A stretch of 64,000 bases of DNA, from the NCBI GenBank assembly GCA_024672315.1, contig GCA_024672315.1_4714.1. One strand, given 5' to 3'. Positions 1,884 to 52,436 of the stretch are shown here, in pieces (within the stretch, counting starts at the first letter, position 1; each line of letters begins with the position of its first letter). The stretch is from a phage. The notes under the pieces were generated by a model. It was not told where the DNA came from and searched no databases. It saw only the letters and a list, made by a program, of their open reading frames with translations. The translations under genes were made by a program, and so were the position numbers.

Positions 1884-4793
1884 ATGAACGATATAAATAA
1901 AGGGCGCGTCGCCCTCGAACGTCAAATGAGTAATAATGACGTTGCGAAGGCACTCATGAACAAATTTGTCGCTCCTGCTCCGCAGTCACGTCTTTATAAT
2001 ACACGTGATGCGGAAGGAGCGAACGGTCGTTTCGGGTTAGTTGTTCCCGACCAAATGACGATGAACACGGTTACGCGTGCGACCGCGACAAACATCGAGG
2101 ATAATAAAAACATCCTCGAGTTGTTCCCTGAACTTAAACGCGTGATGCAGATCTATGTTGCCGCGTTGACGAACCCTAACGATCTTAAGACGGTCGAGAT
2201 GTTTATCGACAGCGAAGATTTCCCCGGCAGAGTCGCAGAAATCGTTCAGCCGATGATCGATACCATCGACACGCATTTTAAGAATATCTATAAAATAAAG
2301 ACGCTTATCCCTCGTATCATCGAAGACGTCTTCTTTATCAAGGGCAGTTATAACTTCGTTGTTCTGCCAGAAAGCACGCTCGACCGCGCCATTAATGGTA
2401 ACGGTCAACTGAAACTTGAAGAATACGGATTTAAAGACAACCATTTTGCAAGTTGGGGGCTTCTAGGTAACGACAGTCGCAAACGCCACGAAAATCAATT
2501 ACCTGCGACGGTTTCGATGGAAGATTATTTCTCAGGCGTTAATGAAACCATACCGTACGATCCTGTTGTTCGCATAGACAGCATTAAGTTTACCAATACC
2601 CTGCTTCGTGATAAGGACGGTAAATTCATTGAAGCGAAGATCGATATTCCGGATATGGTTACGGTTGTCGATAACCCAGACATCCTCCGCATGCCTATTC
2701 TACATCAACGTCGAGCAGCGACCGCGGTACAACGTGCGTTACGTGCGAACACGTTAGGTGGTAGTGGTTTGGTAACACTGTCAGGTGATCCGACCCTAAC
2801 CGCTAACCGACGTGAGCTGTCGCAAGAACAGGTTAACGAGATTTGGAATAAACTCAACATCCAGCGTCACACCAAGGTATCTCCCGTTTACGCGTTGGCA
2901 ACCCCAGATACACTCGATCGTCAAAGCGTTGGTCATCCTGGCGTGATGCACGTACCACCTGAGGCATTAGAACCCGTACATGCACCAGGTGATCCGGAGA
3001 ACCATATCGGGTATTTAGTTCAGTTGGATGAGTTTGGTTATCCGGTGCGTTTGGTTGAAGACGCAGCGTATTACAAGCAGTTGGAAGGTCGATTGTCGAA
3101 GATCACCGCGGATATCGCAGGTACGTCAAGCAACGGCATGGCGAGCGAGATGATCGGCGCAGCCAAGAACATGATCCAAGGTACGTCATGTAATCAGGTA
3201 GACATGTCGGCCTTCGTATCGTCGTACGAATCGCTGATGCAACGTTACATTGTTGAACGTATCGTTAACGGCTATCTTGGCAGTGCGGTGGAAATCGGCG
3301 CGACATCATCGTTCTATTTGTCTATGCTTGCTCGTAGTCTCGCTCACAAGCAGACCCGTGTTTTGTTTATTCCTCGAGAGATGGTGACTTACATCGCCTA
3401 TGAATACAACAAATACGGTATCGGTCGTTCGCTGCTTGAAAGTACGAAAATGATCTCGTCGCAACGAGCCATGCTCATGGTTCAAGAACTGATGGCGAAA
3501 ATCAAAAGTTCGTTGAACTATACGACGTTAAGCGTAATGCTTGAAGACACCGACAGAAACCCGGTCGATACCGTCGAACAAGCACTACATAGTTTCGCTC
3601 GTGTCTACCAGTCTGGTTTCCCGTTGGGTGAAACTAACCCGATGGATATCATCAATGCGTACGAACGAAGCTCGATTCGATTGAAGGTTGAGGGGAATAA
3701 CCCACGCTTCCCGAAATTGAATACAGACGTCAGCGTTGAGCAGCGCAACTATCAGTCTCCTGATAATGAGCTGATGGATCGTTACCGTCGTGACCATTTC
3801 ATGGGCTTGGGCGTTTCTCCGGAGATTATCGATACTTCCTACCAATCTGAATTCGCAGCTTCTGTGATTACAGCTAACGCGATGCAGGAGAAACAGTTCA
3901 CGGTTTGTCGTGAGGTGATCACGAATGGGTTATCGGACCACATCAAGAAATACACGGCATACAGTCCCGTGTTGTTGACGTCGTTACGAAACACGGTTCG
4001 TGCGAACATGTCTAAGCTCTCCCAGGCACAATTGAAGCAGCTTTTTGGTAGCGATTTCGAAAACGGTGTTATCCGTAACGTTAACGCCTATCAGGAGATT
4101 GACGACCAATCAGCAACAATGGATCTGGATTACACTAAACCAGAAGTCCAGGAAGTTATTGCCGATGCTTATGTGTCCATGTTCTTAAACAGCCTGCGTG
4201 TGCGTTTACCGGATAGCAATGCTCGTCGCCTTGAAGATCAGGTACGTGAATATAATCAGTACAAGGAAGCGATTACTGCGCAACTTGATGATTATTTAAC
4301 GCCTGATTACGTCATGGGTCTGGGTGGGGTTGATGAAACAACGCTGCAGATGATTCGTGCATGCATTATTGGTACCGCGATGCGTACGTGGGCAAAAGAG
4401 AACAACTTCAATCAGGAGCTAGCTGATCTCTTCAGTCTTGACGATAAGAAGAATGCCGTGCAAGATTGGAAACGTATGTCCATGGAACATATTGAAGTCA
4501 TGGGTAAATGCATGGGTGATTTTGCATTGTATATTCAGAATCTGACGAAGAAGATTGAAGAGAAGATGGGCGCTCAAGCACAGGATGGTAGCGTTTCATC
4601 TGACGGTTCTTGGTCATCCGATTCAAGTAGCGATACCGGTTCTTCTGATGACTTCGGTGGCGGTGACGATTTCGGGGATACCGATTTCGATACCGAAACG
4701 ATGGAGGAAACCTCAACAGAAGAAACAACCACATCTGAGGATACGACGACCGACACAACGTCAGAAGACGATACTTCAGGTGATATTGTCTAA
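1884..4793 (+). CDS. large hypothetical protein (969 aa) with acidic Ser/Asp/Thr-rich C-terminal tail; possible virion protein
   Basis: Long ORF, ATG with AAGGAG upstream; diverges from gene 1 with interleaved RBSs; C-terminal low-complexity tail SSDGSWSSDSSSDTGSSDDFGGGDDF...; no Walker A motif seen; stop followed by A13 run and GC-rich hairpin. Confidence 0.8.
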   Translation: MNDINKGRVALERQMSNNDVAKALMNKFVAPAPQSRLYNTRDAEGANGRFGLVVPDQMTMNTVTRATATNIEDNKNILELFPELKRVMQIYVAALTNPNDLKTVEMFIDSEDFPGRVAEIVQPMIDTIDTHFKNIYKIKTLIPRIIEDVFFIKGSYNFVVLPESTLDRAINGNGQLKLEEYGFKDNHFASWGLLGNDSRKRHENQLPATVSMEDYFSGVNETIPYDPVVRIDSIKFTNTLLRDKDGKFIEAKIDIPDMVTVVDNPDILRMPILHQRRAATAVQRALRANTLGGSGLVTLSGDPTLTANRRELSQEQVNEIWNKLNIQRHTKVSPVYALATPDTLDRQSVGHPGVMHVPPEALEPVHAPGDPENHIGYLVQLDEFGYPVRLVEDAAYYKQLEGRLSKITADIAGTSSNGMASEMIGAAKNMIQGTSCNQVDMSAFVSSYESLMQRYIVERIVNGYLGSAVEIGATSSFYLSMLARSLAHKQTRVLFIPREMVTYIAYEYNKYGIGRSLLESTKMISSQRAMLMVQELMAKIKSSLNYTTLSVMLEDTDRNPVDTVEQALHSFARVYQSGFPLGETNPMDIINAYERSSIRLKVEGNNPRFPKLNTDVSVEQRNYQSPDNELMDRYRRDHFMGLGVSPEIIDTSYQSEFAASVITANAMQEKQFTVCREVITNGLSDHIKKYTAYSPVLLTSLRNTVRANMSKLSQAQLKQLFGSDFENGVIRNVNAYQEIDDQSATMDLDYTKPEVQEVIADAYVSMFLNSLRVRLPDSNARRLEDQVREYNQYKEAITAQLDDYLTPDYVMGLGGVDETTLQMIRACIIGTAMRTWAKENNFNQELADLFSLDDKKNAVQDWKRMSMEHIEVMGKCMGDFALYIQNLTKKIEEKMGAQAQDGSVSSDGSWSSDSSSDTGSSDDFGGGDDFGDTDFDTETMEETSTEETTTSEDTTTDTTSEDDTSGDIV

Positions 4794-7809: not shown

Positions 7810-9609
7810 TCAATCGATTATGTCGTGATCGTTAATTTCTACAATTTCTTCATCGAATCGACCGACGTCTTTCTTCAAGCCTGCATTGGTTGCTGCAACG
7901 TCATTTGCAATTTGTGGAGTAATGATTAACCGACCACGCTCGTCGATAGGTGCGTACATACTGAACTTCTGACGTCCGGTTGGTTCGGAGTGCGGAAGAT
8001 TCAGATAGCTTGCACAGAACGGGATGGAACCACTAACCAAACGACTCTCGTCAGCCAATGCAGCACCGCCTGCATTTTGGCTCTGGAGAACAACATGTGT
8101 GCTCACTTTGAACAGCATGCAATCACCAGGTGACTGAATCGATGTTGCCACTTTCTCACGTTTATCACGATTGCTCTGGATATTGAGAATCGCTTCCGTT
8201 GCAACTTGATTTCGCAACGCCTTCTGTACATCGCGATTGGTCATCTCTTTACGGTTGTTCTGTCGTTTACCACGTTCTGTGGTTTTAAGATGGAACCCCA
8301 GTTTAAAGATGCTCTTACGCACATCCTCCATGACATATTCCAACACCATCAGTTCCTTACCGAACATCGTCGTGGTATCAACACGACTCATTTCGATAGT
8401 AACATTATCAATCAGATACGCCATAAATTCGTAGAAGTCGTCGCAAGGAATATTTTCCTGTTTGAACTTCTTCTGTTGAATCTCGTCAACGTAAAGATCG
8501 AGACTGTCGATGTGGTGGTTTACATCACGCAACAAACGCGCATCCGCATTGTTGTTATTAAAGATAATCAAACCGAGTAATGTACGCCAATGGTCTGGCG
8601 CATTCGCGAACTCTTCAACCGGATAGTCTTCCGGAAAACGATCGTAATAACGGTCGATGAGATATAAGAACGCACCGACAAGGCCAAGAACAATACGTTC
8701 CGTGCCTCCACGTCTTACAGCGATTTGAATATCAGGATGTTTATAACGTACAGCGCTAGCGCTACGGCTTTTACCGCTTTTGCTGATACTAAAGCCTTTA
8801 GGAATAACCCCCATGGTGCGATAGATTACCCATTGGTCGCGCGGAAAATCACGTTCAGCAAGGTTCCGTCCGGTTACGGCTTCGACACCTGCAAAACGTC
8901 GGAAACACTCACCCACCCCGTACTTCGCAAAGAGATAGTGACCCAGTGTGGTTACGCTGGTGTGGTTGATGTTGTCACCGTTCACTTTACTTTGTTTGGT
9001 AAGATGATAGATTTGCGACCAGGGTAATGACAGGTAATGACGATAATCGATACCGGTCGGTGTATCATTGCTCAGGAACTGATACGGTGTACGTTTAACC
9101 GTGATTTTGTCACGCGGAAGCATGATGAACGCCATGTCTTTCGTGTAACTGATTACCGGGTCAGCGAGCACCGCACTGAGAATGAAGTTCGCACCACGTA
9201 GACGCATTTTACCACCCTGACCTACCGCGGGTAATAGGAGAGGGTGTCGGATAATGCAGTAGTCCTTTCCGGGTTCACGACGGTCACCTGATTCCATCGC
9301 GCCGTACCAGCGGAATTCTAGCATCACCATAAACACATCGGAAGGCGCAAGGTCGAAGGTCAGCTTACCGCTATCCTTCCCTTTGGTTTTCTTTCCTCCG
9401 CTTAAGTAGTGGAACTGTTCGCGGGCCATACAGCGACGCAGGCCATGATACACCAGATCCTTAGGTAAACTATCTTTGCTGTTCCGCCAAAGACGATCAA
9501 CATAGGACTCAACATCTTGCATCTTATCGACGACGATGTTGCGTGCTATCTTCTCGTTCATCTTCGGTGCAAGCTCAGCGACAGCTTTGCAGAATCTAGG
9601 ATCCATCAC
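7810..9609 (-). CDS. hypothetical protein (599 aa)
   Basis: Long ORF; strong AAGGAG RBS 6 nt upstream of ATG at 9609. Confidence 0.8.
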   Translation of the reverse strand: MMDPRFCKAVAELAPKMNEKIARNIVVDKMQDVESYVDRLWRNSKDSLPKDLVYHGLRRCMAREQFHYLSGGKKTKGKDSGKLTFDLAPSDVFMVMLEFRWYGAMESGDRREPGKDYCIIRHPLLLPAVGQGGKMRLRGANFILSAVLADPVISYTKDMAFIMLPRDKITVKRTPYQFLSNDTPTGIDYRHYLSLPWSQIYHLTKQSKVNGDNINHTSVTTLGHYLFAKYGVGECFRRFAGVEAVTGRNLAERDFPRDQWVIYRTMGVIPKGFSISKSGKSRSASAVRYKHPDIQIAVRRGGTERIVLGLVGAFLYLIDRYYDRFPEDYPVEEFANAPDHWRTLLGLIIFNNNNADARLLRDVNHHIDSLDLYVDEIQQKKFKQENIPCDDFYEFMAYLIDNVTIEMSRVDTTTMFGKELMVLEYVMEDVRKSIFKLGFHLKTTERGKRQNNRKEMTNRDVQKALRNQVATEAILNIQSNRDKREKVATSIQSPGDCMLFKVSTHVVLQSQNAGGAALADESRLVSGSIPFCASYLNLPHSEPTGRQKFSMYAPIDERGRLIITPQIANDVAATNAGLKKDVGRFDEEIVEINDHDIID

Positions 9610-48351: not shown

Positions 48352-49851
48352 ATGAGCGAACAAGAACGAAAACCTAAGAAGAAACTGCTCGGTATTCAAT
48401 GTCGACACATCAGTTATAACGAAGCGAACGATGGCAGCAAGAACGACCTCATGATCGCAAAAGAGATCATGTTCTTTGATGATAACACACAAGCGACGAA
48501 TCTTCGCTTCTTCGAGAATTACAAACGTCCGTTTTGGGTGACGGTAGAGAGTAAACGCAAGAACAAATATAAAAAGGAAAGCGAGAAGCTCTCGCACGTG
48601 CGTCGCTACGATGTCCGTCAAAGTGAACTGGTTGAAAAGATCAGTTCGGTGCTTTATAAAAGACGTGCTGATGATAACACCCGTCTACAGCAGCTTGCAC
48701 GGAGTCCATACCTCTATGGCACGGACGTTAGCGCCAGCTGTTATTTAAAAACTCAGTACAACACAAAATGGCCGGAATACGTCGATAAATTACCCGCTTC
48801 CATTGCCTGTTTCGATATCGAAACCGACGTTGTCCATGGACACGGTAAGATCGTCTGTATGTCTATTACAATGGGATACAATGCGATACTTTGCTATACC
48901 AAGGACTTCGTTGGTCATATTCCGAATGCCATTGAGAAAACCCATGAGAAGATTCGATATTACCTGGCCGAACGTCTGAACACCAAAGAAGATCCTCACG
49001 CGTTCGAAAAATATCAGTACGATGTGCGAATCGTAGAAAGTCCGGCACAAGCGGTCATCCAATGCATGCAGAAGGTTCACGAATGGCAGCCGGATTATCT
49101 CCTTGGCTGGAATATCGCGTTCGATATTCCGCGCATGCTCCAGGCACTGAACGAAGAAGGGTATCGTCCCGAGGATGTTTTCTCCGATCCTCGTGTACCA
49201 CCTAAATATCGCATTGCTCGCTGGGTACCACCGAAGACCGACAAGGTATCTGCTTCAGGGCGTAAAACCAACCTTACCCTTGAGCAAACCTGGCCGATGT
49301 TTTATACGATGGCTACGTATCAGGTTATGGATGCGATGTGTGGTTATAAGTTCGTTCGTTTAGGAAGACCGGATGAGGGACGCTATTCACTCGATGCGGT
49401 ATTAGAGCGAAATAAATGCCATACGAAATTAAAAGCAATTCCTGGTACAGAAGGGTTCACGGAGCTCGCCTGGCACGAAGAGATGCAAACGAACCATCAA
49501 ATCGACTACGGCGTATATAACCTTTGGGATAACCAGGGTATCGAGGCGTTGGACCAGAAAACAAAAGACTATTCGATGACCATCCCTATTCGTTTAGCGG
49601 CGTCGGATTTGAAAGATTTCAGTTCTAACCCTAAACGTATCTGCGATAAACTTTTCTTCGTTTATCTTAACCGTGGGGAAGTCATGGGATGCACCGCCGA
49701 CGACATGACCCAGGAAGAAGATAAGTGGGTTATCTCACGAACCGGACATATCGTCACATTGCCGTGCGATCTCATGGCGGACAACGGCATCCATCTCTTC
49801 TGGGATATGCCTAATTTAAGGAGCTATATTCGATTATTTGTTGCGGATTAA
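48352..49851 (+). CDS. family-B DNA polymerase N-terminal/3'-5' exonuclease domain protein (499 aa, no polymerase domain)
   Basis: Exo I-like motif CFDIETD, Exo II-like GWNIAFDIP and an Exo III-like Y-x3-D (YGVYNLWD) in canonical order and spacing; no polymerase A/B/C motifs before the stop; no clear SD upstream of ATG. Confidence 0.6.
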   Translation: MSEQERKPKKKLLGIQCRHISYNEANDGSKNDLMIAKEIMFFDDNTQATNLRFFENYKRPFWVTVESKRKNKYKKESEKLSHVRRYDVRQSELVEKISSVLYKRRADDNTRLQQLARSPYLYGTDVSASCYLKTQYNTKWPEYVDKLPASIACFDIETDVVHGHGKIVCMSITMGYNAILCYTKDFVGHIPNAIEKTHEKIRYYLAERLNTKEDPHAFEKYQYDVRIVESPAQAVIQCMQKVHEWQPDYLLGWNIAFDIPRMLQALNEEGYRPEDVFSDPRVPPKYRIARWVPPKTDKVSASGRKTNLTLEQTWPMFYTMATYQVMDAMCGYKFVRLGRPDEGRYSLDAVLERNKCHTKLKAIPGTEGFTELAWHEEMQTNHQIDYGVYNLWDNQGIEALDQKTKDYSMTIPIRLAASDLKDFSSNPKRICDKLFFVYLNRGEVMGCTADDMTQEEDKWVISRTGHIVTLPCDLMADNGIHLFWDMPNLRSYIRLFVAD

Positions 49852-49940
49852 CCTTCGTTCTGTAAAAGTTTACTTCATGTAAGAATTGTGTGCGGCATAA
49901 GAGAGGCCGATACATCTAGATATTACATGAGGTTTACGAG

Positions 49941-51131
49941 ATGGAAAAATCTATACATACTCAAACTGGAACTATTGACTATCGCGATTCAGCATATTTG
50001 CCGTACACAAATCATCGTTATCGTATATTTGAAGATGGCGAGTTGTACGACTATAAAGAAGATAGGGTCGTCCCTTACGAAGTTGTAGACGGTGTCCCTT
50101 ATGTTGAAATCGATTGGTATAGAGGCATTGGAAAATACGATCTCGGTATGATCATTCTCACCGTTCTTGAACGGGTTGCTTTACCAGATCACCTTTACGA
50201 TGAAATTGAATCGTTGTTTGTGGACGGAGATCCGACTAACTTTTCGTATAGCAATCACATCTACCGTTTCCGTAATGGGCCGTTAGAAGTTGAGGGATTC
50301 GAAGGTTATTGTTATATTCCGTTTGCATCTCGTTACGCGATAAATAAAGAAGGACATTGTATTAGTCTTCTTTCGTTGGATCCTATCACGTGGACGAAAA
50401 CGGTTCAGCAAGGCACACGTCTTGGCGGATACGCTTATCGTAAAGTGGTTCCTGATAGCGGGTTTACACCGCAGTTGTATCGTCACCGAGCTATCATGTT
50501 AGCGTTTACGAGATATGATGCTAACGTTGTGAACTTAACCGTAAATCATAAAAACGGAATTAAAGGTGACGATTGGTTTGACAACCTCGAATGGGCGACA
50601 TATGCCGAGAACAATCAACATGCTCGTATGGCAGGGTTGTGTATAGGTACGTCAAAACCTGTTTTGGTTTATGATTACCGTGCACGAATCGAACGTCGTT
50701 TTAATAGTATCGCAGAAGCGGAACGTGCTTATCCGTACGTACCGAAAGGACGTTTCAAATGGTGGGTAAACAATCCCCCGAAACGTATCCCAGAATGCGA
50801 TTTATACATCAAGTTTGCCACGGACAATACGCCTTGGCCAGAGTGGAAACTTGGAGAAGATCGTCGTGTCGAGGACACCGATGGTCGCGGTATTCTCGCT
50901 ATTAATAAAGAGACGAACGAACGACATGTGTTTCCATCAGTAACTGCTGCCGCAAATGCGTTAGGAATCTCCTGGATTACCGTAAGACGTCATTGCGATC
51001 GTCGTGCAGTACCTACGAAACAGCCTTGGTGTTTTCGTTATGCTGATGATATTGCCGCTATGCCCGATTTCGATGTTAGTAAATTAGTTCCTAAGAAGAA
51101 GCGTGTATTTAATGTTCCATTAGAACGATAA
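49941..51131 (+). CDS. HNH homing endonuclease (396 aa)
   Basis: HNH signature NHKNGIKGDDWFDNLEWATYAENNQHA (H-N-G ... N-L-E-W ... E-N-N-x-H pattern of HNH_3-type homing endonucleases); GAGG RBS; lies immediately upstream of group I intron core elements. Confidence 0.7.
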   Translation: MEKSIHTQTGTIDYRDSAYLPYTNHRYRIFEDGELYDYKEDRVVPYEVVDGVPYVEIDWYRGIGKYDLGMIILTVLERVALPDHLYDEIESLFVDGDPTNFSYSNHIYRFRNGPLEVEGFEGYCYIPFASRYAINKEGHCISLLSLDPITWTKTVQQGTRLGGYAYRKVVPDSGFTPQLYRHRAIMLAFTRYDANVVNLTVNHKNGIKGDDWFDNLEWATYAENNQHARMAGLCIGTSKPVLVYDYRARIERRFNSIAEAERAYPYVPKGRFKWWVNNPPKRIPECDLYIKFATDNTPWPEWKLGEDRRVEDTDGRGILAINKETNERHVFPSVTAAANALGISWITVRRHCDRRAVPTKQPWCFRYADDIAAMPDFDVSKLVPKKKRVFNVPLER

Positions 51132-51170
51132 CAGGTCCCCCTACTTGTAATGAGTGGGTGAACTCTCTTT

Positions 51171-51565
51171 AATTGCTGGAAACCTTTAATGCCCCTCCAC
51201 ACCACAACGCAATCCGAAAGGGTAAACGTGATGGTTGTCGAAAGACAGAAAAAAGTTGGAGGGGATTACCTATGTTGCAATAAAAGCCACCGCTTTCTTG
51301 GATAACGAAAGATGACGGTGGTACTAAGGGTAGAAGATAGAAATAAGGTAACCGTAGCAGCGAAGACCCTACGGACTGTCGTGACCGACTCGATGAGTTG
51401 GCGTGGTTAACACGGACAGGCTACGGGTAACGTTCAACGACCATCCGGTTGCGCGGAGTAGGAGAATTAGGATGTTCTCCGAAAAGGGAGAAGTCGGTCG
51501 AGGTGTTGTAGAAACACCGTTGGGTTTGCTAACGCGAATATAAGACAGGCTAAGATATGGTCTAT
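51171..51565 (+). ncRNA. putative group I intron catalytic core (P, R and S conserved elements)
   Basis: ORF-poor 0.8-kb region containing, in canonical order, a P-like element AATTGCTGGAAACC (51171-51184), R-like GTTCAACGACCA (51432-51443) and S-like AAGATATGGTC (51552-51562); R GACCA and S TGGTC can pair as P7 with a compensatory change relative to the canonical GACUA/UAGUC. Splice sites not determined. Confidence 0.5.
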
Positions 51566-51912
51566 TTTTCGTTGTGTTCATGTATAGAAATTACTGAACC
51601 ATCGTAAGAGCTCGATATATCTTCAAGCTATCCAAATGGGCAGATCCTGTTGAATCTATCCAGAGCATGTGTTTTTCGTGAGCTCTCGCGCATTGAGGGC
51701 GTCTCTGACTATCAATTCAGGAAGTTAGGTATCAACTTTATTACCGGAGGTAAAACGAACGCTGTAGACTTCTGTAGAATCGTTTATAAAGCACCGTCGA
51801 TGTTTGAACTTTTAGAACATTTCGATGCGACGCGCCCAAAAGAGGAAGCGCGGACCATCGAATGAATCAAGTATGTTGATCCTCGTTTAACAAAAAGAAA
51901 ACGCATGCGAAG

Positions 51913-51944
51913 CCCCTCCCCCTGGCGGAAGCCGGAGGGAGGGG
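51913..51944. terminator. GC-rich stem-loop, repeat-family member
   Basis: CCCCTCCCCCTGGC-GGAA-GCCGGAGGGAGGGG closing the plus-strand island and abutting the stop of the 51951 minus gene; TTTATG downstream. Confidence 0.4.
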
Positions 51945-51950
51945 TGAGGT

Positions 51951-52436
51951 TTATGCGCGTTCGTTGCCAACCGTTACTTTGTAGTCAGCGTCGGTTAAGA
52001 AAATAGACAGGAATCCATGTTCTTTGCAAATCTGACTAAGGATGTCAGCAATGATTTCGTTGATCATCGGTTTGTTTGCAAGGGCATAGATGTACCCGGG
52101 TGTAAAAGAAAGTGCATGATTGATCATAGGCTCATGAGAAGCCAAGATAAGGATCACGTGATGCTTCCCATCGTCGGTAACGACCGCTTGCGTAGACACG
52201 AAGAAATCAGTGAAGCAGCAGCGATCACAGGCTTTAGGTATATACAAATCACCCAGAGCTTCGTCGCGTGCTTTTATGTGTGTTTCAGGGGTGATGCTGC
52301 TAAGTTGATCTTCAGCGAGATCCAAGACATCCTCAATCGTTTTAAGAATAGCGTTGCGGAAATCCTCGCGGTAGAATGGGATGATATCACGATCGTTCAT
52401 GTAATCGCCGGATTCGATAGTAAAGTTGATGTTCAT
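51951..52436 (-). CDS. hypothetical protein (161 aa)
   Basis: AGGAG RBS 6 nt upstream of ATG; stop overlaps hairpin flank at 51951. Confidence 0.7.
   Translation of the reverse strand: MNINFTIESGDYMNDRDIIPFYREDFRNAILKTIEDVLDLAEDQLSSITPETHIKARDEALGDLYIPKACDRCCFTDFFVSTQAVVTDDGKHHVILILASHEPMINHALSFTPGYIYALANKPMINEIIADILSQICKEHGFLSIFLTDADYKVTVGNERA

What the first reader, a model, noticed from the sequence alone, without database searches (positions are those of the whole stretch)
48352..51950. Polymerase exonuclease-domain gene, HNH endonuclease and group I intron core in one plus-strand island
Seen: ORF 48352-49851 carries family-B polymerase Exo I/II/III-like motifs (CFDIETD, GWNIAFDIP, YGVYNLWD) but no polymerase domain. 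ORF 49941-51131 has a clear HNH motif. The following 0.8 kb has no convincing ORF but contains P-like (51171-51184), R-like (51432-51443) and S-like (51552-51562) group I intron elements in canonical order. R GACCA and S TGGTC can pair as P7, a compensatory change from the canonical GACUA/UAGUC. A frame is open from 51608 to 51865 downstream. Inference: a self-splicing intron with its homing endonuclease interrupts or trails the exonuclease gene, and the 51608-51865 frame could be a short 3' exon. The HNH ORF sits upstream of the core, not in the usual P6/P8/P9 loops, so the architecture is atypical and splice sites are unresolved.
Basis: partly seen in the sequence, partly recalled or inferred. 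Interest (0 to 1): 0.7.

Follow-up and report, generated by a model that had tools for sequence, protein, structure and literature searches.

The report
Mobile intron splitting phage DNA polymerase
A Goslar-like giant E. coli phage carries a 1.76-kb group I intron, with its own HNH homing endonuclease gene, inside an invariant motif of its DNA polymerase exonuclease-subunit gene; this is an ordinary kind of mobile element, but public records do not annotate it.

Summary
The window is 97.8% identical to Escherichia phage Goslar, a nucleus-forming jumbo phage.

ORF 48352-49851 and the frame from 51608 are two exons of one gene, the family-B polymerase N-terminal/exonuclease subunit (phiKZ gp082 family). 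A group I intron (49849-51610, 1762 nt) separates them.

**Splice sites.** The 5' site follows U49848 (GAU|UAA). The 3' site follows G51610 (GAG|CUC). Joining them gives a 583-aa protein reading ...FVAD|LDISSSYPN..., which restores an invariant D-L-D..YP motif. Intron-less alleles in closely related phages encode the same protein across the junction (2 substitutions elsewhere).

**Architecture.** The HNH/NUMOD1 ORF (49941-51131) lies in the loop of a long-range P1. The internal guide GGUCC (51134-51138) sits 2 nt after the ORF stop and just before P2. The core (P3-P9, with P7.1/P7.2) follows.

**Rfam.** Intron_gpI scores 43.7 bits, below the 50-bit cutoff, with E = 7.6e-8. Same-site introns in metagenomic relatives score 80-89 bits.

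**Population.** Intron-plus and intron-minus alleles coexist. A 61-nt synonymously recoded tract flanks the insertion site.

Verdict: new member of a known kind. Splicing and cleavage are untested.

The parts
48352..49848 (+). Exon 1 (499 codons): N-terminal and 3'-5' exonuclease domains of the family-B polymerase subunit; ends ...FVAD
   Evidence: PHROG 3011 positions 5-494, E = 2e-150. Exo I/II/III residues are invariant or nearly so. Foldseek matches RB69 gp43 at E = 6e-13. 43 of 44 substitutions versus Goslar fall at codon position 3.
49849..51610 (+). Group I intron, 1762 nt. It starts with an in-frame UAA stop and ends with the terminal G at 51610.
   Evidence: Boundaries come from the protein alignment and the intron-less allele L017. 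Rfam Intron_gpI scores 43.7 bits with E = 7.6e-8.
49845..49849 (+). P1 5' strand GGAU|U, containing the 5' splice site after U49848
   Evidence: Pairs with GGUCC 51134-51138. This pairing is recovered as the minimum-energy fold of an ORF-deleted construct.
49855..49862 (+). 5' strand of the P1 extension (UCGUUCUG)
   Evidence: Forms 8 bp with 51121-51128. An equivalent helix with a different sequence occurs in four other same-site introns; Fisher combined p = 9e-6.
49929..49932 (+). GAGG ribosome-binding site, 8 nt before the HNH start codon
   Evidence: Read directly from the sequence.
49941..51131 (+). HNH/NUMOD1 homing endonuclease gene (396 aa) in the P1 loop
   Evidence: Pfam NUMOD1 29.5 bits, HNH_3 23.3 bits. 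PHROG 59, E = 3e-18. 14 of 15 substitutions versus Goslar fall at codon position 3. 26-33% identical to the HNH ORFs of other introns in this motif.
51121..51128 (+). 3' strand of the P1 extension (UAGAACGA), covering the last codons of the HNH ORF
51134..51138 (+). Internal guide sequence GGUCC; G51135 pairs with U49848
   Evidence: The same ACAGGUCC sits just before P2 in the ORF-less same-site intron L019. GGUC or AGUCC occupies the same place in L018, L021, L022, L023 and HPP-Temi.
51140..51158 (+). P2 hairpin (CCUACUU / GAGUGGG, loop GUAAU)
   Evidence: the helix covaries in relatives
51163..51170 (+). P3 5' strand, CUCUCUUU
   Evidence: Forms 8 bp with 51483-51490. It covaries in L019 and L023.
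51171..51186 (+). J3/4, P4 5' strand and P5 5' strand (the 'P' element AAUUGCUGGAAACC)
51187..51344 (+). Large P5 extension, absent from the compact relatives
   Evidence: Minimum-energy helices. A compensatory change, C51291-G51317 to U-A, occurs in L011.
51345..51360 (+). P5 3' strand and P4 3' strand (the 'Q' element CCGUAGCAG)
51366..51428 (+). P6 with an internal extension (ACCC / GGGU closing stem)
   Evidence: All 4 pairs change on both sides across relatives, and 92.9% of cells are paired.
51432..51443 (+). J6/7 and P7 5' strand (the 'R' element GUUCAACGACCA)
51444..51480 (+). P7.1 (UCCG/CGGA) and P7.2 (GGAGAAU/GUUCUCC), a feature of subgroup IA
51483..51490 (+). P3 3' strand, AAAGGGAG
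51492..51551 (+). P8 (AGUCGGUC / GACAGGCU) enclosing two extra hairpins
   Evidence: Substitutions in Goslar and L011 preserve pairing (U-A to U-G, G-U to A-U, G-U to G-C).
51552..51562 (+). The 'S' element AAGAUAUGGUC; UGGUC 51558-62 is the P7 3' strand
51576..51599 (+). P9 hairpin (GUUCA-GUA / UAC-UGAAC)
51611..51865 (+). Exon 2 (84 codons plus stop); begins LDISSSYPNGQ
   Evidence: PHROG 3011 positions 508-571, E = 4e-13. tblastn abuts exon 1 in 250 or more phages. All 10 substitutions versus Goslar are synonymous, and TTG 51650 is CTG in Goslar and L011, so the exon has no conserved start codon of its own.

Best explanation
This is a mobile group I intron (subgroup IA-like, with P7.1/P7.2) carrying an I-HmuI-type HNH/NUMOD1 homing endonuclease gene. 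It is inserted between codons D499 and L500 of the gene for the N-terminal/exonuclease subunit of the divergent family-B DNA polymerase of a Goslar-like nucleus-forming jumbo phage.

**Shown here**
- The gene is split exactly at 49848|49849 and 51610|51611.
- The ligated reading frame is identical across the junction to that of intron-less alleles.
- The interruption contains a complete group I core.
- The HNH ORF and both exons are under purifying selection.
- Intron-plus and intron-minus alleles coexist among near-identical phages.

**Inferred mechanism**
1. The pre-mRNA folds so that exon GGAU plus U+1 pairs with GGUCC (51134-38), forming P1. An 8-bp P1 extension clamps this pairing and loops out the 1.2-kb HNH ORF.
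2. Exogenous guanosine attacks after U49848.
3. The terminal G51610 docks, and the exons are ligated.
4. The resulting mRNA encodes a 583-aa protein with the restored invariant motif ADLDxSSSYPN.
5. The HNH protein is translated from its own GAGG ribosome-binding site. It nicks or cuts intron-less alleles near this motif.
6. Repair from the intron-plus copy spreads the intron, together with about 60 nt of flanking exon sequence.
For: **Gene identity and split**
- Exon 1 matches PHROG 3011 positions 5-494 and exon 2 matches positions 508-571.
- tblastn matches to the two exons abut in uninterrupted phiKZ-like genes.
- The spliced product aligns without a gap to homologs; D499, D501, Y506 and P507 are invariant in 95 homologs.
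- P0001/L017, from a 237-kb Goslar-like contig, carries the gene uninterrupted and reads ...FVADLDISSSYPNGQ....

**Ribozyme**
- Rfam Intron_gpI scores 43.7 bits with E = 7.6e-8 and is the only hit in the window.
- Introns at the identical site in metagenomic relatives score 89.3 bits (L023) and 79.7 bits (L019). The intron-less L017 has no hit.
- All of these introns follow GAU and end in G before the Leu-Asp codons.
- Helices P2-P9 are recovered by folding and by hand.
- Across seven related introns, 74.8% of cells are paired against 62.5 +/- 1.7% in shuffles. 21 pairs change on both sides against 12 +/- 2.1. Zero of 500 shuffles reach the observed values, and the best register is slide 0.
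- A compensatory change in the P5 extension and four pairing-preserving changes occur among the three close relatives.

**P1 and the position of the ORF**
- The P1 extension is present in 5 of 5 ORF-bearing same-site introns, each with a different sequence (combined p = 9e-6).
- The ORF-less L019 has the same ACAGGUCC guide sequence next to P2, forming a local P1 hairpin.

**Endonuclease**
- HNH.
- 14 of 15 substitutions fall at third codon positions.

**Mobility**
- In one 90%-identity protein cluster, 499-aa (interrupted) forms are seen on at least 213 contigs and 583-aa (uninterrupted) forms on at least 101 contigs, among the 15 members listed.
- HNH third positions are less diverged than exon third positions (14/397 against 51/583, p = 0.001).
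- 24 of 61 nt differ synonymously around the site between the intron-plus and intron-minus alleles, against 2.8% elsewhere (p = 1e-21).
Against: - The Rfam score is below the family's gathering cutoff (43.7 against 50). Large insertions in P5, P6 and P8 probably account for this.
- P1 proper is only 5 bp including two G-U pairs, and no convincing P10 was found.
- No covariation in P1 is available from the three near-identical copies. Support for P1 comes from more distant introns.
- The MAFFT alignment used for pair counting has register errors and misplaces the window's S element.
- No RNA or protein data were available, so splicing, endonuclease activity and homing are all inferred.
- The motif-A assignment rests on sequence pattern only. 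The AlphaFold model is disordered there (pLDDT below 50 for residues 496-512).
Confidence: 0.88

Rival explanations
1. A decayed, non-splicing intron remnant. The gene would be permanently split, giving a 499-aa exonuclease protein, with exon 2 either unused or made as a separate small peptide.
For: GenBank annotates Goslar gp068 as a complete 499-aa protein and leaves exon 2 unannotated. The Rfam score is sub-threshold. P1 is short.
Against: - Exon 2 shows only synonymous changes among three phages, including changes upstream of the sole candidate start codon. That TTG is CTG in Goslar and L011.
- The split falls between two invariant aspartates.
- All core helices are intact and accept only pairing-preserving changes.
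- The U at -1, the terminal G and the guide sequence are all in place.
Confidence: 0.05
2. Two independent mobile elements rather than one unit. An ORF-less group I intron (like L019) would later have been invaded in its P1 loop by a free-standing HNH gene. The endonuclease would then promote its own spread, by collaborative homing, and need not target the intron-less polymerase allele.
For: An ORF-less 372-nt intron with the same insertion site and the same ACAGGUCC/P2 junction exists (L019). At a neighbouring site, L025 has the HNH gene on the opposite strand, downstream of the core. Related HNH proteins accompany introns at two sites 6 nt apart.
Against: In the window the ORF lies physically inside the intron, between the 5' splice site and the guide sequence, so the two move as one unit now. 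The recoded tract is centred on the intron insertion site. This account concerns origin and is compatible with the best explanation for present function.
Confidence: 0.3
3. The group I resemblance is a chance match, and the interruption is simply an inserted HNH gene plus spacer.
For: There was no hit at the Rfam gathering threshold.
Against: E = 7.6e-8 for the whole window. The hit lies exactly between the two exons and on the correct strand. Homologous same-site insertions score 80-89 bits. Helices covary across relatives.
Confidence: 0.01

Closest known systems
Group I introns with HNH endonucleases in chimallivirus genes: phiKZ gp071/gp072/gp073 (non-virion RNA polymerase), phiKZ gp56 and gp179, the PhiPA3 gp210 intron (Birkholz 2024, PMC11620839), and the PhiPA3 helicase intron
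   Same: Same phage family. Same layout in the three examined here (phiKZ gp071/072/073, the PhiPA3 helicase intron, HPP-Temi): exon 1, in-frame stop, HNH ORF, ribozyme core, exon 2, with the 3' end of the ORF running into the guide sequence or P2. The HNH proteins are homologous: 34% identity over 143 aa with gp72, and a weaker match to gp179. The R element is nearly identical to that of the phiKZ gp72 intron.
   Different: The host gene is different: the polymerase exonuclease subunit, not an RNA polymerase or helicase. P7 is GACCA/UGGUC instead of GACUA/UAGUC. The core is much larger (479 nt), with expansions in P5, P6 and P8, which lowers the Rfam score. The Goslar record does not annotate it, and the papers searched do not report it.
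The HPP-Temi (Pawinskivirus) DNA polymerase intron, and metagenomic introns L018, L019, L021, L022 and L023
   Same: Same gene and same motif. L018-L023 share the identical insertion site. The HNH proteins are 26-33% identical. All have the GGUC(C) guide just before P2, and the ORF-bearing ones have the P1 extension.
   Different: HPP-Temi is inserted 6 nt further downstream, after ADLD. L019 has no ORF. L018 has two ORFs. All of these cores are compact.
SPO1/SP82 (I-HmuI, I-HmuII), Bastille (I-BasI) and Bastillevirinae DNA polymerase introns; also the LUZ24 and Pf-WMP3 (I-PfoP3I) polymerase introns
   Same: These are phage group I introns in DNA polymerase genes that encode HNH (PHROG 59, I-HmuI/NUMOD type) nicking homing endonucleases (PMC11878797; reference list).
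   Different: Those genes belong to other PHROG families (phrog_17 in Bastillevirinae) and, from my own knowledge, encode family-A polymerases. Here the host is a divergent family-B exonuclease subunit, in a phage that replicates inside a protein nucleus. I did not check the ORF position in those introns.
T4 td, nrdB and sunY introns (subgroup IA2)
   Same: From my own knowledge: an in-frame UAA immediately after the 5' splice site, a short P1, P7.1/P7.2, R and S elements of the GUUCAACGACUA / AAGAUAUAGUC type, and insertion at conserved catalytic residues.
   Different: In T4 the ORFs sit in the P6a or P9.1 loops and encode GIY-YIG or other endonucleases. Here the ORF is in the P1 loop and encodes an HNH enzyme.

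Membership tests
Group I catalytic intron (Rfam RF00028) | Covariance-model score at or above the curated gathering cutoff (50 bits) | tested here: not met
   43.7 bits, with E = 2.8e-9 in the local search and 7.6e-8 for the whole window. Same-site relatives score 89.3 and 79.7 bits.
Group I catalytic intron (Rfam RF00028) | Conserved core P3-P9 with P/Q/R/S elements and the P3/P7 pseudoknot | tested here: met
   All helices are located. Covariation across 7 introns: 21 pairs change on both sides, and 0 of 500 shuffles reach the observed value.
Group I catalytic intron (Rfam RF00028) | 5' splice site after a U that forms a G-U pair with an internal guide sequence in P1 | tested here: met
   U49848 pairs with G51135. 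P1 plus its extension is the minimum-energy fold of the ORF-deleted construct. The guide position is conserved in 6 related introns. The P1 extension has combined p = 9e-6.
Group I catalytic intron (Rfam RF00028) | Terminal G immediately before the 3' splice site | tested here: met
   G51610. The same holds in L018, L019 and L023.
Group I catalytic intron (Rfam RF00028) | Removal restores an intact host gene | tested here: met
   Gap-free alignment to homologs. Identical junction in the intron-less allele L017/P0001.
Group I catalytic intron (Rfam RF00028) | Guanosine-dependent self-splicing | not testable with these tools
   This needs in vitro transcription and splicing, or RNA from infected cells.
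Subgroup IA (IA2-like) | Extra helices P7.1 and P7.2 between P7 and P3' | tested here: met
   51444-51457 and 51461-51480. The subgroup was assigned by inspection, not with a subgroup-specific model.
HNH homing endonuclease (I-HmuI / NUMOD type) | HNH (His-Me finger) catalytic motif | tested here: inconclusive
   Pfam HNH_3 scores 23.3 bits against a cutoff of 24.8. PHROG 59 'HNH endonuclease' gives E = 3e-18. VNH203..G...N..NLEW...NN.H is conserved in 7 proteins. There is no PDB sequence hit.
HNH homing endonuclease (I-HmuI / NUMOD type) | NUMOD DNA-binding module | tested here: met
   NUMOD1 scores 29.5 bits against a cutoff of 22.8, at residues 322-351.
HNH homing endonuclease (I-HmuI / NUMOD type) | Encoded inside a self-splicing intron, and present or absent together with it | tested here: met
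   The ORF lies between the 5' splice site and the guide sequence. Intron and ORF are absent together in L017.
HNH homing endonuclease (I-HmuI / NUMOD type) | Site-specific nicking or cleavage of the intron-less allele | not testable with these tools
   Indirect evidence only: the recoded 61-nt tract around the site.
Family B DNA polymerase, N-terminal/3'-5' exonuclease module | Pfam DNA_pol_B_exo1 at or above cutoff | tested here: not met
   16.4 bits against 23. A profile search of PDB sequences found nothing.
Family B DNA polymerase, N-terminal/3'-5' exonuclease module | Exo I (DxE), Exo II (NxxxD) and Exo III (YxxxD) residues, and the family-B fold | tested here: met
   D155, E157, N254, Y389 and D393 are invariant in 95 homologs, and D258 is nearly invariant. 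Foldseek top 50 hits are all family-B polymerases; RB69 gp43 gives E = 6e-13 over about 450 columns.
Family B DNA polymerase, N-terminal/3'-5' exonuclease module | Polymerase motif A (DxxSLYPS) at the splice junction | tested here: inconclusive
   D501-I-S-S-S-Y-P-N fits the pattern. Its spacing from Exo III is 108 aa; from memory, the equivalent spacing in RB69 is 84 aa. D499, D501, Y506 and P507 are invariant. The model is disordered at this segment. Iyer 2021 describes the catalytic polymerase as a separate protein.

The most novel reading that the evidence does not exclude
The intron's HNH endonuclease may act as a weapon between co-infecting Goslar-like phages, in the way PhiPA3 gp210 acts against phiKZ. 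Under this reading, the 61-nt block of purely synonymous recoding in the intron-less allele is a selected cleavage-resistance allele rather than a passive co-conversion scar. The block includes serine codon-family switches and a change of the -1 U to C. The motif-A codons of this subunit would then be an arms-race hot spot, with at least three intron insertion sites within about 20 nt.
Probability: 0.2. Interest if true: 0.6.

Novelty: new member of a known kind. Interest (0 to 1): 0.38.

Why it matters
**Annotation.** The GenBank and RefSeq records of Goslar, a model nucleus-forming E. coli phage, list a 499-aa 'DNA polymerase', a separate 'NUMOD1 domain protein' and 0.8 kb of unannotated DNA. 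The real product is a 583-aa spliced protein, and the unannotated stretch contains a ribozyme core and an exon.

**Biology.** Group I introns were already known in chimallivirus RNA polymerase genes. This one adds the replicative polymerase to the list of invaded genes. In these phages transcription occurs inside a protein nucleus and translation outside it. Splicing may therefore be uncoupled from translation, and the endonuclease has to be imported to reach its target.

The coexistence of intron-plus and intron-minus alleles in near-identical phages that are seen in many E. coli and Salmonella assemblies gives a natural system for testing homing and endonuclease-mediated competition.

**Limits.** The kind of element and its mechanism are textbook. 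The find is useful rather than surprising.

Tried and rejected
1. I searched the whole intron for a guide sequence pairing with the exon end. The longest matches lay inside the ORF or in P8b. The only candidates in the 92-nt 5' segment were 4-bp, G-U-rich helices at 49868 and 49932. I rejected these in favour of GGUCC 51134-38 after comparing with L019, HPP-Temi and the other same-site introns.
2. The Rfam alignment places its first hairpin at 51071-51092, inside the HNH ORF, with low posterior probability and mismatches. I rejected this; P2 is 51140-51158.
3. PDB sequence searches found nothing useful, either for the HNH protein or with a profile of the polymerase subunit.
I used the intron-less homolog P0001 with 94 homologs instead.
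5. Window 7810-9609(-), PHROG 2943 'polymerase', was a candidate for the missing catalytic half. It has no Pfam hit and no visible motif C, so it remains unresolved.
6. MAFFT misaligned the window's S element, P8 and P9 against the compact introns. P7, P8 and P9 were therefore left out of the pair counts.
7. I searched for an intron-less allele carrying the window-type flanks (GTTGCGGAT|CTCGATATATC). There were 0 hits in IMG/VR. The single hit in JGI metagenomes is an unrelated chance 20-mer. The L017-type junction has 0 hits in IMG/VR.
8. There was no match in complete E. coli genomes.
10. The sigma-70 promoter and terminator scan found nothing above background.

Full report
**Source and context.** The 3.6-kb region is 97.8% identical to Escherichia phage vB_EcoM_Goslar, positions 79690-83288. 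Goslar is a nucleus-forming jumbo phage (chimallivirus). Its record annotates gp068 'DNA polymerase' (499 aa) and gp069 'NUMOD1 domain protein'. The next 0.8 kb is unannotated, up to a gene on the opposite strand.

**Checking the observation.**
- Both ORFs are at the stated coordinates.
- The three quoted peptide motifs contain D155/E157, N254 and Y389/D393. These are invariant in an alignment of 95 full-length homologs; D258 of the second motif is nearly invariant.
- Pfam DNA_pol_B_exo1 is only a weak hit (16.4 bits against a cutoff of 23).
- An AlphaFold model of the intron-less homolog (mean pLDDT 88, pTM 0.82) has only family-B polymerases among its top 50 PDB matches. RB69 gp43 gives E = 6e-13 over about 450 columns.
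- The second ORF has NUMOD1 above threshold and HNH_3 just below it. It matches PHROG 59 'HNH endonuclease' (E = 3e-18), the family typical of intron-encoded endonucleases in Bastillevirinae polymerase genes (PMC11878797).
They align to the corresponding positions of Rfam Intron_gpI.
- At the gathering threshold nothing is reported, because the hit scores 43.7 bits against a cutoff of 50. Its E-value is 7.6e-8 for the whole 64-kb window on both strands, and it is the only RNA-family hit.

**The gene is split, and where.**
- Exon 1 matches PHROG 3011 ('DNA polymerase', 576 positions) over positions 5-494. The downstream frame matches positions 508-571.
- In some 250 phiKZ-like phages the tblastn matches to the two pieces abut with a one-codon overlap.
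- I looked for an in-frame junction with a U before the 5' splice site and a G before the 3' splice site. Only one combination fits: after U49848 (GCG GAU|UAA) and after G51610 (UAA GAG|CUC GAU).
- The ligated product (583 aa) aligns without a gap to phiKZ gp082 and to the RSL2, RAY, Aphrodite1 and Noxifer homologs...FVAD|LDISSSYPNG against ...HIADLDIVSTYPNV, and so on.
- A database search with the predicted product returned P0001. This 583-aa protein comes from a 237-kb ENA contig and reads straight through the junction. Its locus, L017, is a Goslar-like phage with the gene uninterrupted and with no Intron_gpI hit.
- This settles the boundaries: the intron is 49849-51610 (1762 nt) and exon 2 is 51611-51865.

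**Selection.**
- Between the window and Goslar, 43 of 44 exon-1 substitutions and 14 of 15 HNH substitutions fall at third codon positions.
- All 10 exon-2 substitutions are synonymous.
- The only start-like codon in exon 2 (TTG 51650) is CTG in Goslar and in a third relative, L011. Substitutions upstream of it are also at third positions.
- Exon 2 is therefore translated as a continuation of exon 1, not on its own.

**Ribozyme anatomy.** Folding and inspection give the following helices.

| Element | Coordinates |
|---|---|
| P2 | 51140-58 |
| P3 | 51163-70 with 51483-90 |
| P4 | 51173-79 with 51352-60 |
| P5 | 51182-86 with 51345-49 |
| P5 extension | 51187-51344 |
| P6 | 51366-69 with 51425-28 |
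| P7 | 51439-43 with 51558-62 (GACCA/UGGUC) |
| P7.1 | 51444-57 |
| P7.2 | 51461-80 |
| P8 | 51492-51551, with two inserted hairpins |
| P9 | 51576-99 |
| Terminal G | 51610 |

P7.1 and P7.2 point to subgroup IA. The expansions of P5, P6 and P8 make the core 479 nt against a 253-position model, which probably explains the sub-threshold score.

Among the three near-identical copies, one double change preserves a P5-extension pair (C51291-G51317 becomes U-A). Four single changes in P7.2, P8 and P8b convert pairs between Watson-Crick and wobble forms.

I also counted pairs on a seven-intron alignment (window, Goslar, L019, L023, HPP-Temi, phiKZ gp72, PhiPA3 helicase), using the helices that MAFFT aligned acceptably.
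- 74.8% of cells are paired, against 62.5 +/- 1.7% in shuffles.
- 21 pairs change on both sides, against 12 +/- 2.1.
- Zero of 500 shuffles reach the observed values, and the maximum is at register 0.
- P6 and P7.1 covary at almost every pair.
- The alignment has register errors in P2, P3 and P7.2 and misplaces the window's S element, so these figures are conservative and exclude P7-P9.

**Where the ORF sits.** No good guide sequence lies in the 92-nt 5' segment between the splice site and the ORF. The solution came from relatives.

The same gene is interrupted in many uncultured chimalliviruses. Truncated homologs end at one of three points:
- at ...AD, the same site as the window;
- at ...ADLD, 6 nt further downstream;
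- a few residues beyond that.

I fetched five contigs with the window's site.
- L023 (Rfam 89.3 bits) and L019 (79.7 bits) are clear group I introns. L018 scores 29.3 bits. L021 is cut by the contig end, and L022 ends before the core.
- All five begin after GAU. L018, L019 and L023, whose 3' ends are held, end with G before the Leu-Asp codons.
- L019 has no ORF. Its P1 is a local hairpin whose 3' strand, ACAGGUCCUGC, directly precedes P2.
- The window has the same ACAGGUCC 2 nt after the HNH stop codon and directly before P2. GGUC or AGUCC sits at the same place in L018, L021, L022, L023 and HPP-Temi.

P1 is therefore GGAU|U (49845-49) paired with GGUCC (51134-38), and the HNH ORF lies in the P1 loop. 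An 8-bp extension (49855-62 with 51121-28) clamps the loop shut.

All five ORF-bearing same-site introns have an equivalent extension, each with a different sequence. I tested each against all other windows of its own intron. The individual p-values were 0.03, 0.02, 0.0009, 0.09 and 0.02, and the Fisher combined value is 9e-6.

An 81-nt construct with the ORF replaced by a short linker folds into exactly P1, a 5x5 internal loop, the P1 extension and P2 as its minimum-energy and centroid structure (z = -2.2).

The same layout, in which the 3' end of the ORF overlaps the guide sequence or P2, is seen in phiKZ gp071/072/073, in the PhiPA3 helicase intron and in HPP-Temi. The architecture is thus normal for this phage group. 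PMC11512511 cites phiKZ introns associated with gp56, gp72 and gp179.

**Evidence of mobility.**
- Among 291 phage records with this gene, only the two Goslar records and one other are split here (294 places in 291 records). The third record was not listed; it is presumably HPP-Temi.
- In the 90%-identity protein cluster of Goslar-like phages, the 15 listed members include 499-aa (interrupted) forms seen on at least 213 contigs. They also include 583-aa (uninterrupted) forms on at least 101 contigs. Many of these come from E. coli and Salmonella isolate assemblies.
- HNH third positions are less diverged between the window and Goslar than exon third positions (14/397 against 51/583; p = 0.001).
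- I compared the window's ligated exons with the intron-less L017. 24 of the 61 nt from -37 to +23 differ, all synonymously. The differences include TCT TCA AGC becoming AGC AGT TCA, and GAT becoming GAC at the -1 position. Elsewhere the two differ at 2.8% (p = 1e-21).
- The three intron-plus phages are identical to one another from -57 to +35.
- This pattern is what co-conversion during homing leaves behind. Selection for cleavage resistance in the intron-less lineage would produce it too. I cannot tell the two apart.

**The motif at the insertion site.** D499 and D501 are invariant and L500 nearly so, and Y506 and P507 are invariant. D501-I-S-S-S-Y-P-N fits the family-B polymerase motif A pattern (DxxSLYPS). 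It lies 108 residues after Exo III; from memory, the equivalent spacing in RB69 is 84.

Iyer et al. 2021 (PMC7824862) describe the group-1 jumbo-phage polymerase as a divergent family-B enzyme with its exonuclease encoded separately.

In the AlphaFold model residues 1-450 are confident, but residues 496-512 are disordered. This would fit a strand that needs a partner subunit, but it is an inference. I did not find the catalytic partner in the window.

**Comparison with known systems and novelty.**
- The closest relatives are the HNH-bearing group I introns of chimallivirus RNA polymerase and helicase genes, and the HPP-Temi polymerase intron.
- By function it matches the SPO1, SP82 and Bastille type of polymerase intron with an I-HmuI-like nicking endonuclease.
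- I found no mention of a Goslar polymerase intron in the Goslar description paper, the PhiPA3 intron paper or a 2025 review of nucleus-forming phages.
- It is a new, unannotated member of a well-known kind.

**What remains unproven.** Self-splicing, endonuclease activity and specificity, and homing are all inferred from sequence.

Noticed in passing
window 49812-49848 and 51611-51633, compared with L017 4461-4520: The intron-less allele in a Goslar-like phage (ENA ERZ27286049 k141_31814) encodes the same amino acids. It differs at 24 of 61 nt around the insertion site, all synonymously, including serine codon-family switches and U to C at the -1 position. Elsewhere the two differ at 2.8%. The three intron-plus phages are identical to each other over this stretch. 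This is either a co-conversion tract or a cleavage-resistance recoding.
   Followed up: partly
L008 (HPP-Temi) 2960-4690; L025 4471-6800; proteins P0042, P0055, P0063, P0076, P0093, P0096, P0103, P0116, P0120: The motif codons of this gene are an insertion hot spot. Group I introns sit after ..AD (the window's site), after ..ADLD (6 nt downstream; HPP-Temi, Rfam 59.2 bits), and a few codons beyond ..ADLDV (exact site not mapped). At the third site, L025 has the core directly after exon 1 (37.9 bits) and an HNH_3 gene on the opposite strand.
   Followed up: partly
protein cluster of window 48352-49848: The exact 499-aa exon-1 protein occurs on 139 contigs, up to 259 kb long. Many are deposited as E. 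coli, Enterobacteriaceae or Salmonella enterica isolate assemblies. Goslar-like jumbo phages therefore seem common in sequenced enterobacterial isolates.
   Followed up: no
L018 5068-7398: This same-site metagenomic intron carries two ORFs. The first is an HNH gene whose stop codon falls in the conserved J3/4 AAUUGC sequence. The second is a 215-aa ORF of unknown function inside the core. The Rfam score is only 29.3 bits.
   Followed up: no
L007 (phiKZ) 2450-2470 and 3385-3415: In the phiKZ gp071/gp073 intron, a 14-bp helix joins intron nucleotides +2..+15 to the 3' end of the gp072 ORF. The guide AUUGCC pairs best if the 5' splice site follows GGU, one codon before the annotated gp071 stop. 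The annotated C-terminal Asn may therefore not be in the spliced protein.
   Followed up: partly
residues 496-512 of the spliced protein (window 49837-49848 plus 51611-51649): The invariant motif segment is disordered in an otherwise confident AlphaFold model (pLDDT below 50). It may need the separately encoded catalytic polymerase subunit to fold. That partner was not identified in the window.
   Followed up: partly
window 7810-9609 (-): A 599-aa ORF matches PHROG 2943 'polymerase' (E = 7e-120) but has no Pfam hit and no recognisable family-B motif C. Its identity is unclear.
   Followed up: no
window 51913-51944: A G+C-rich inverted repeat (CCCCUCCC...GGGAGGGG) lies between the end of exon 2 and the convergent gene at 51951-52436. 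It may be a bidirectional terminator. The simple terminator scan did not flag it.
   Followed up: no
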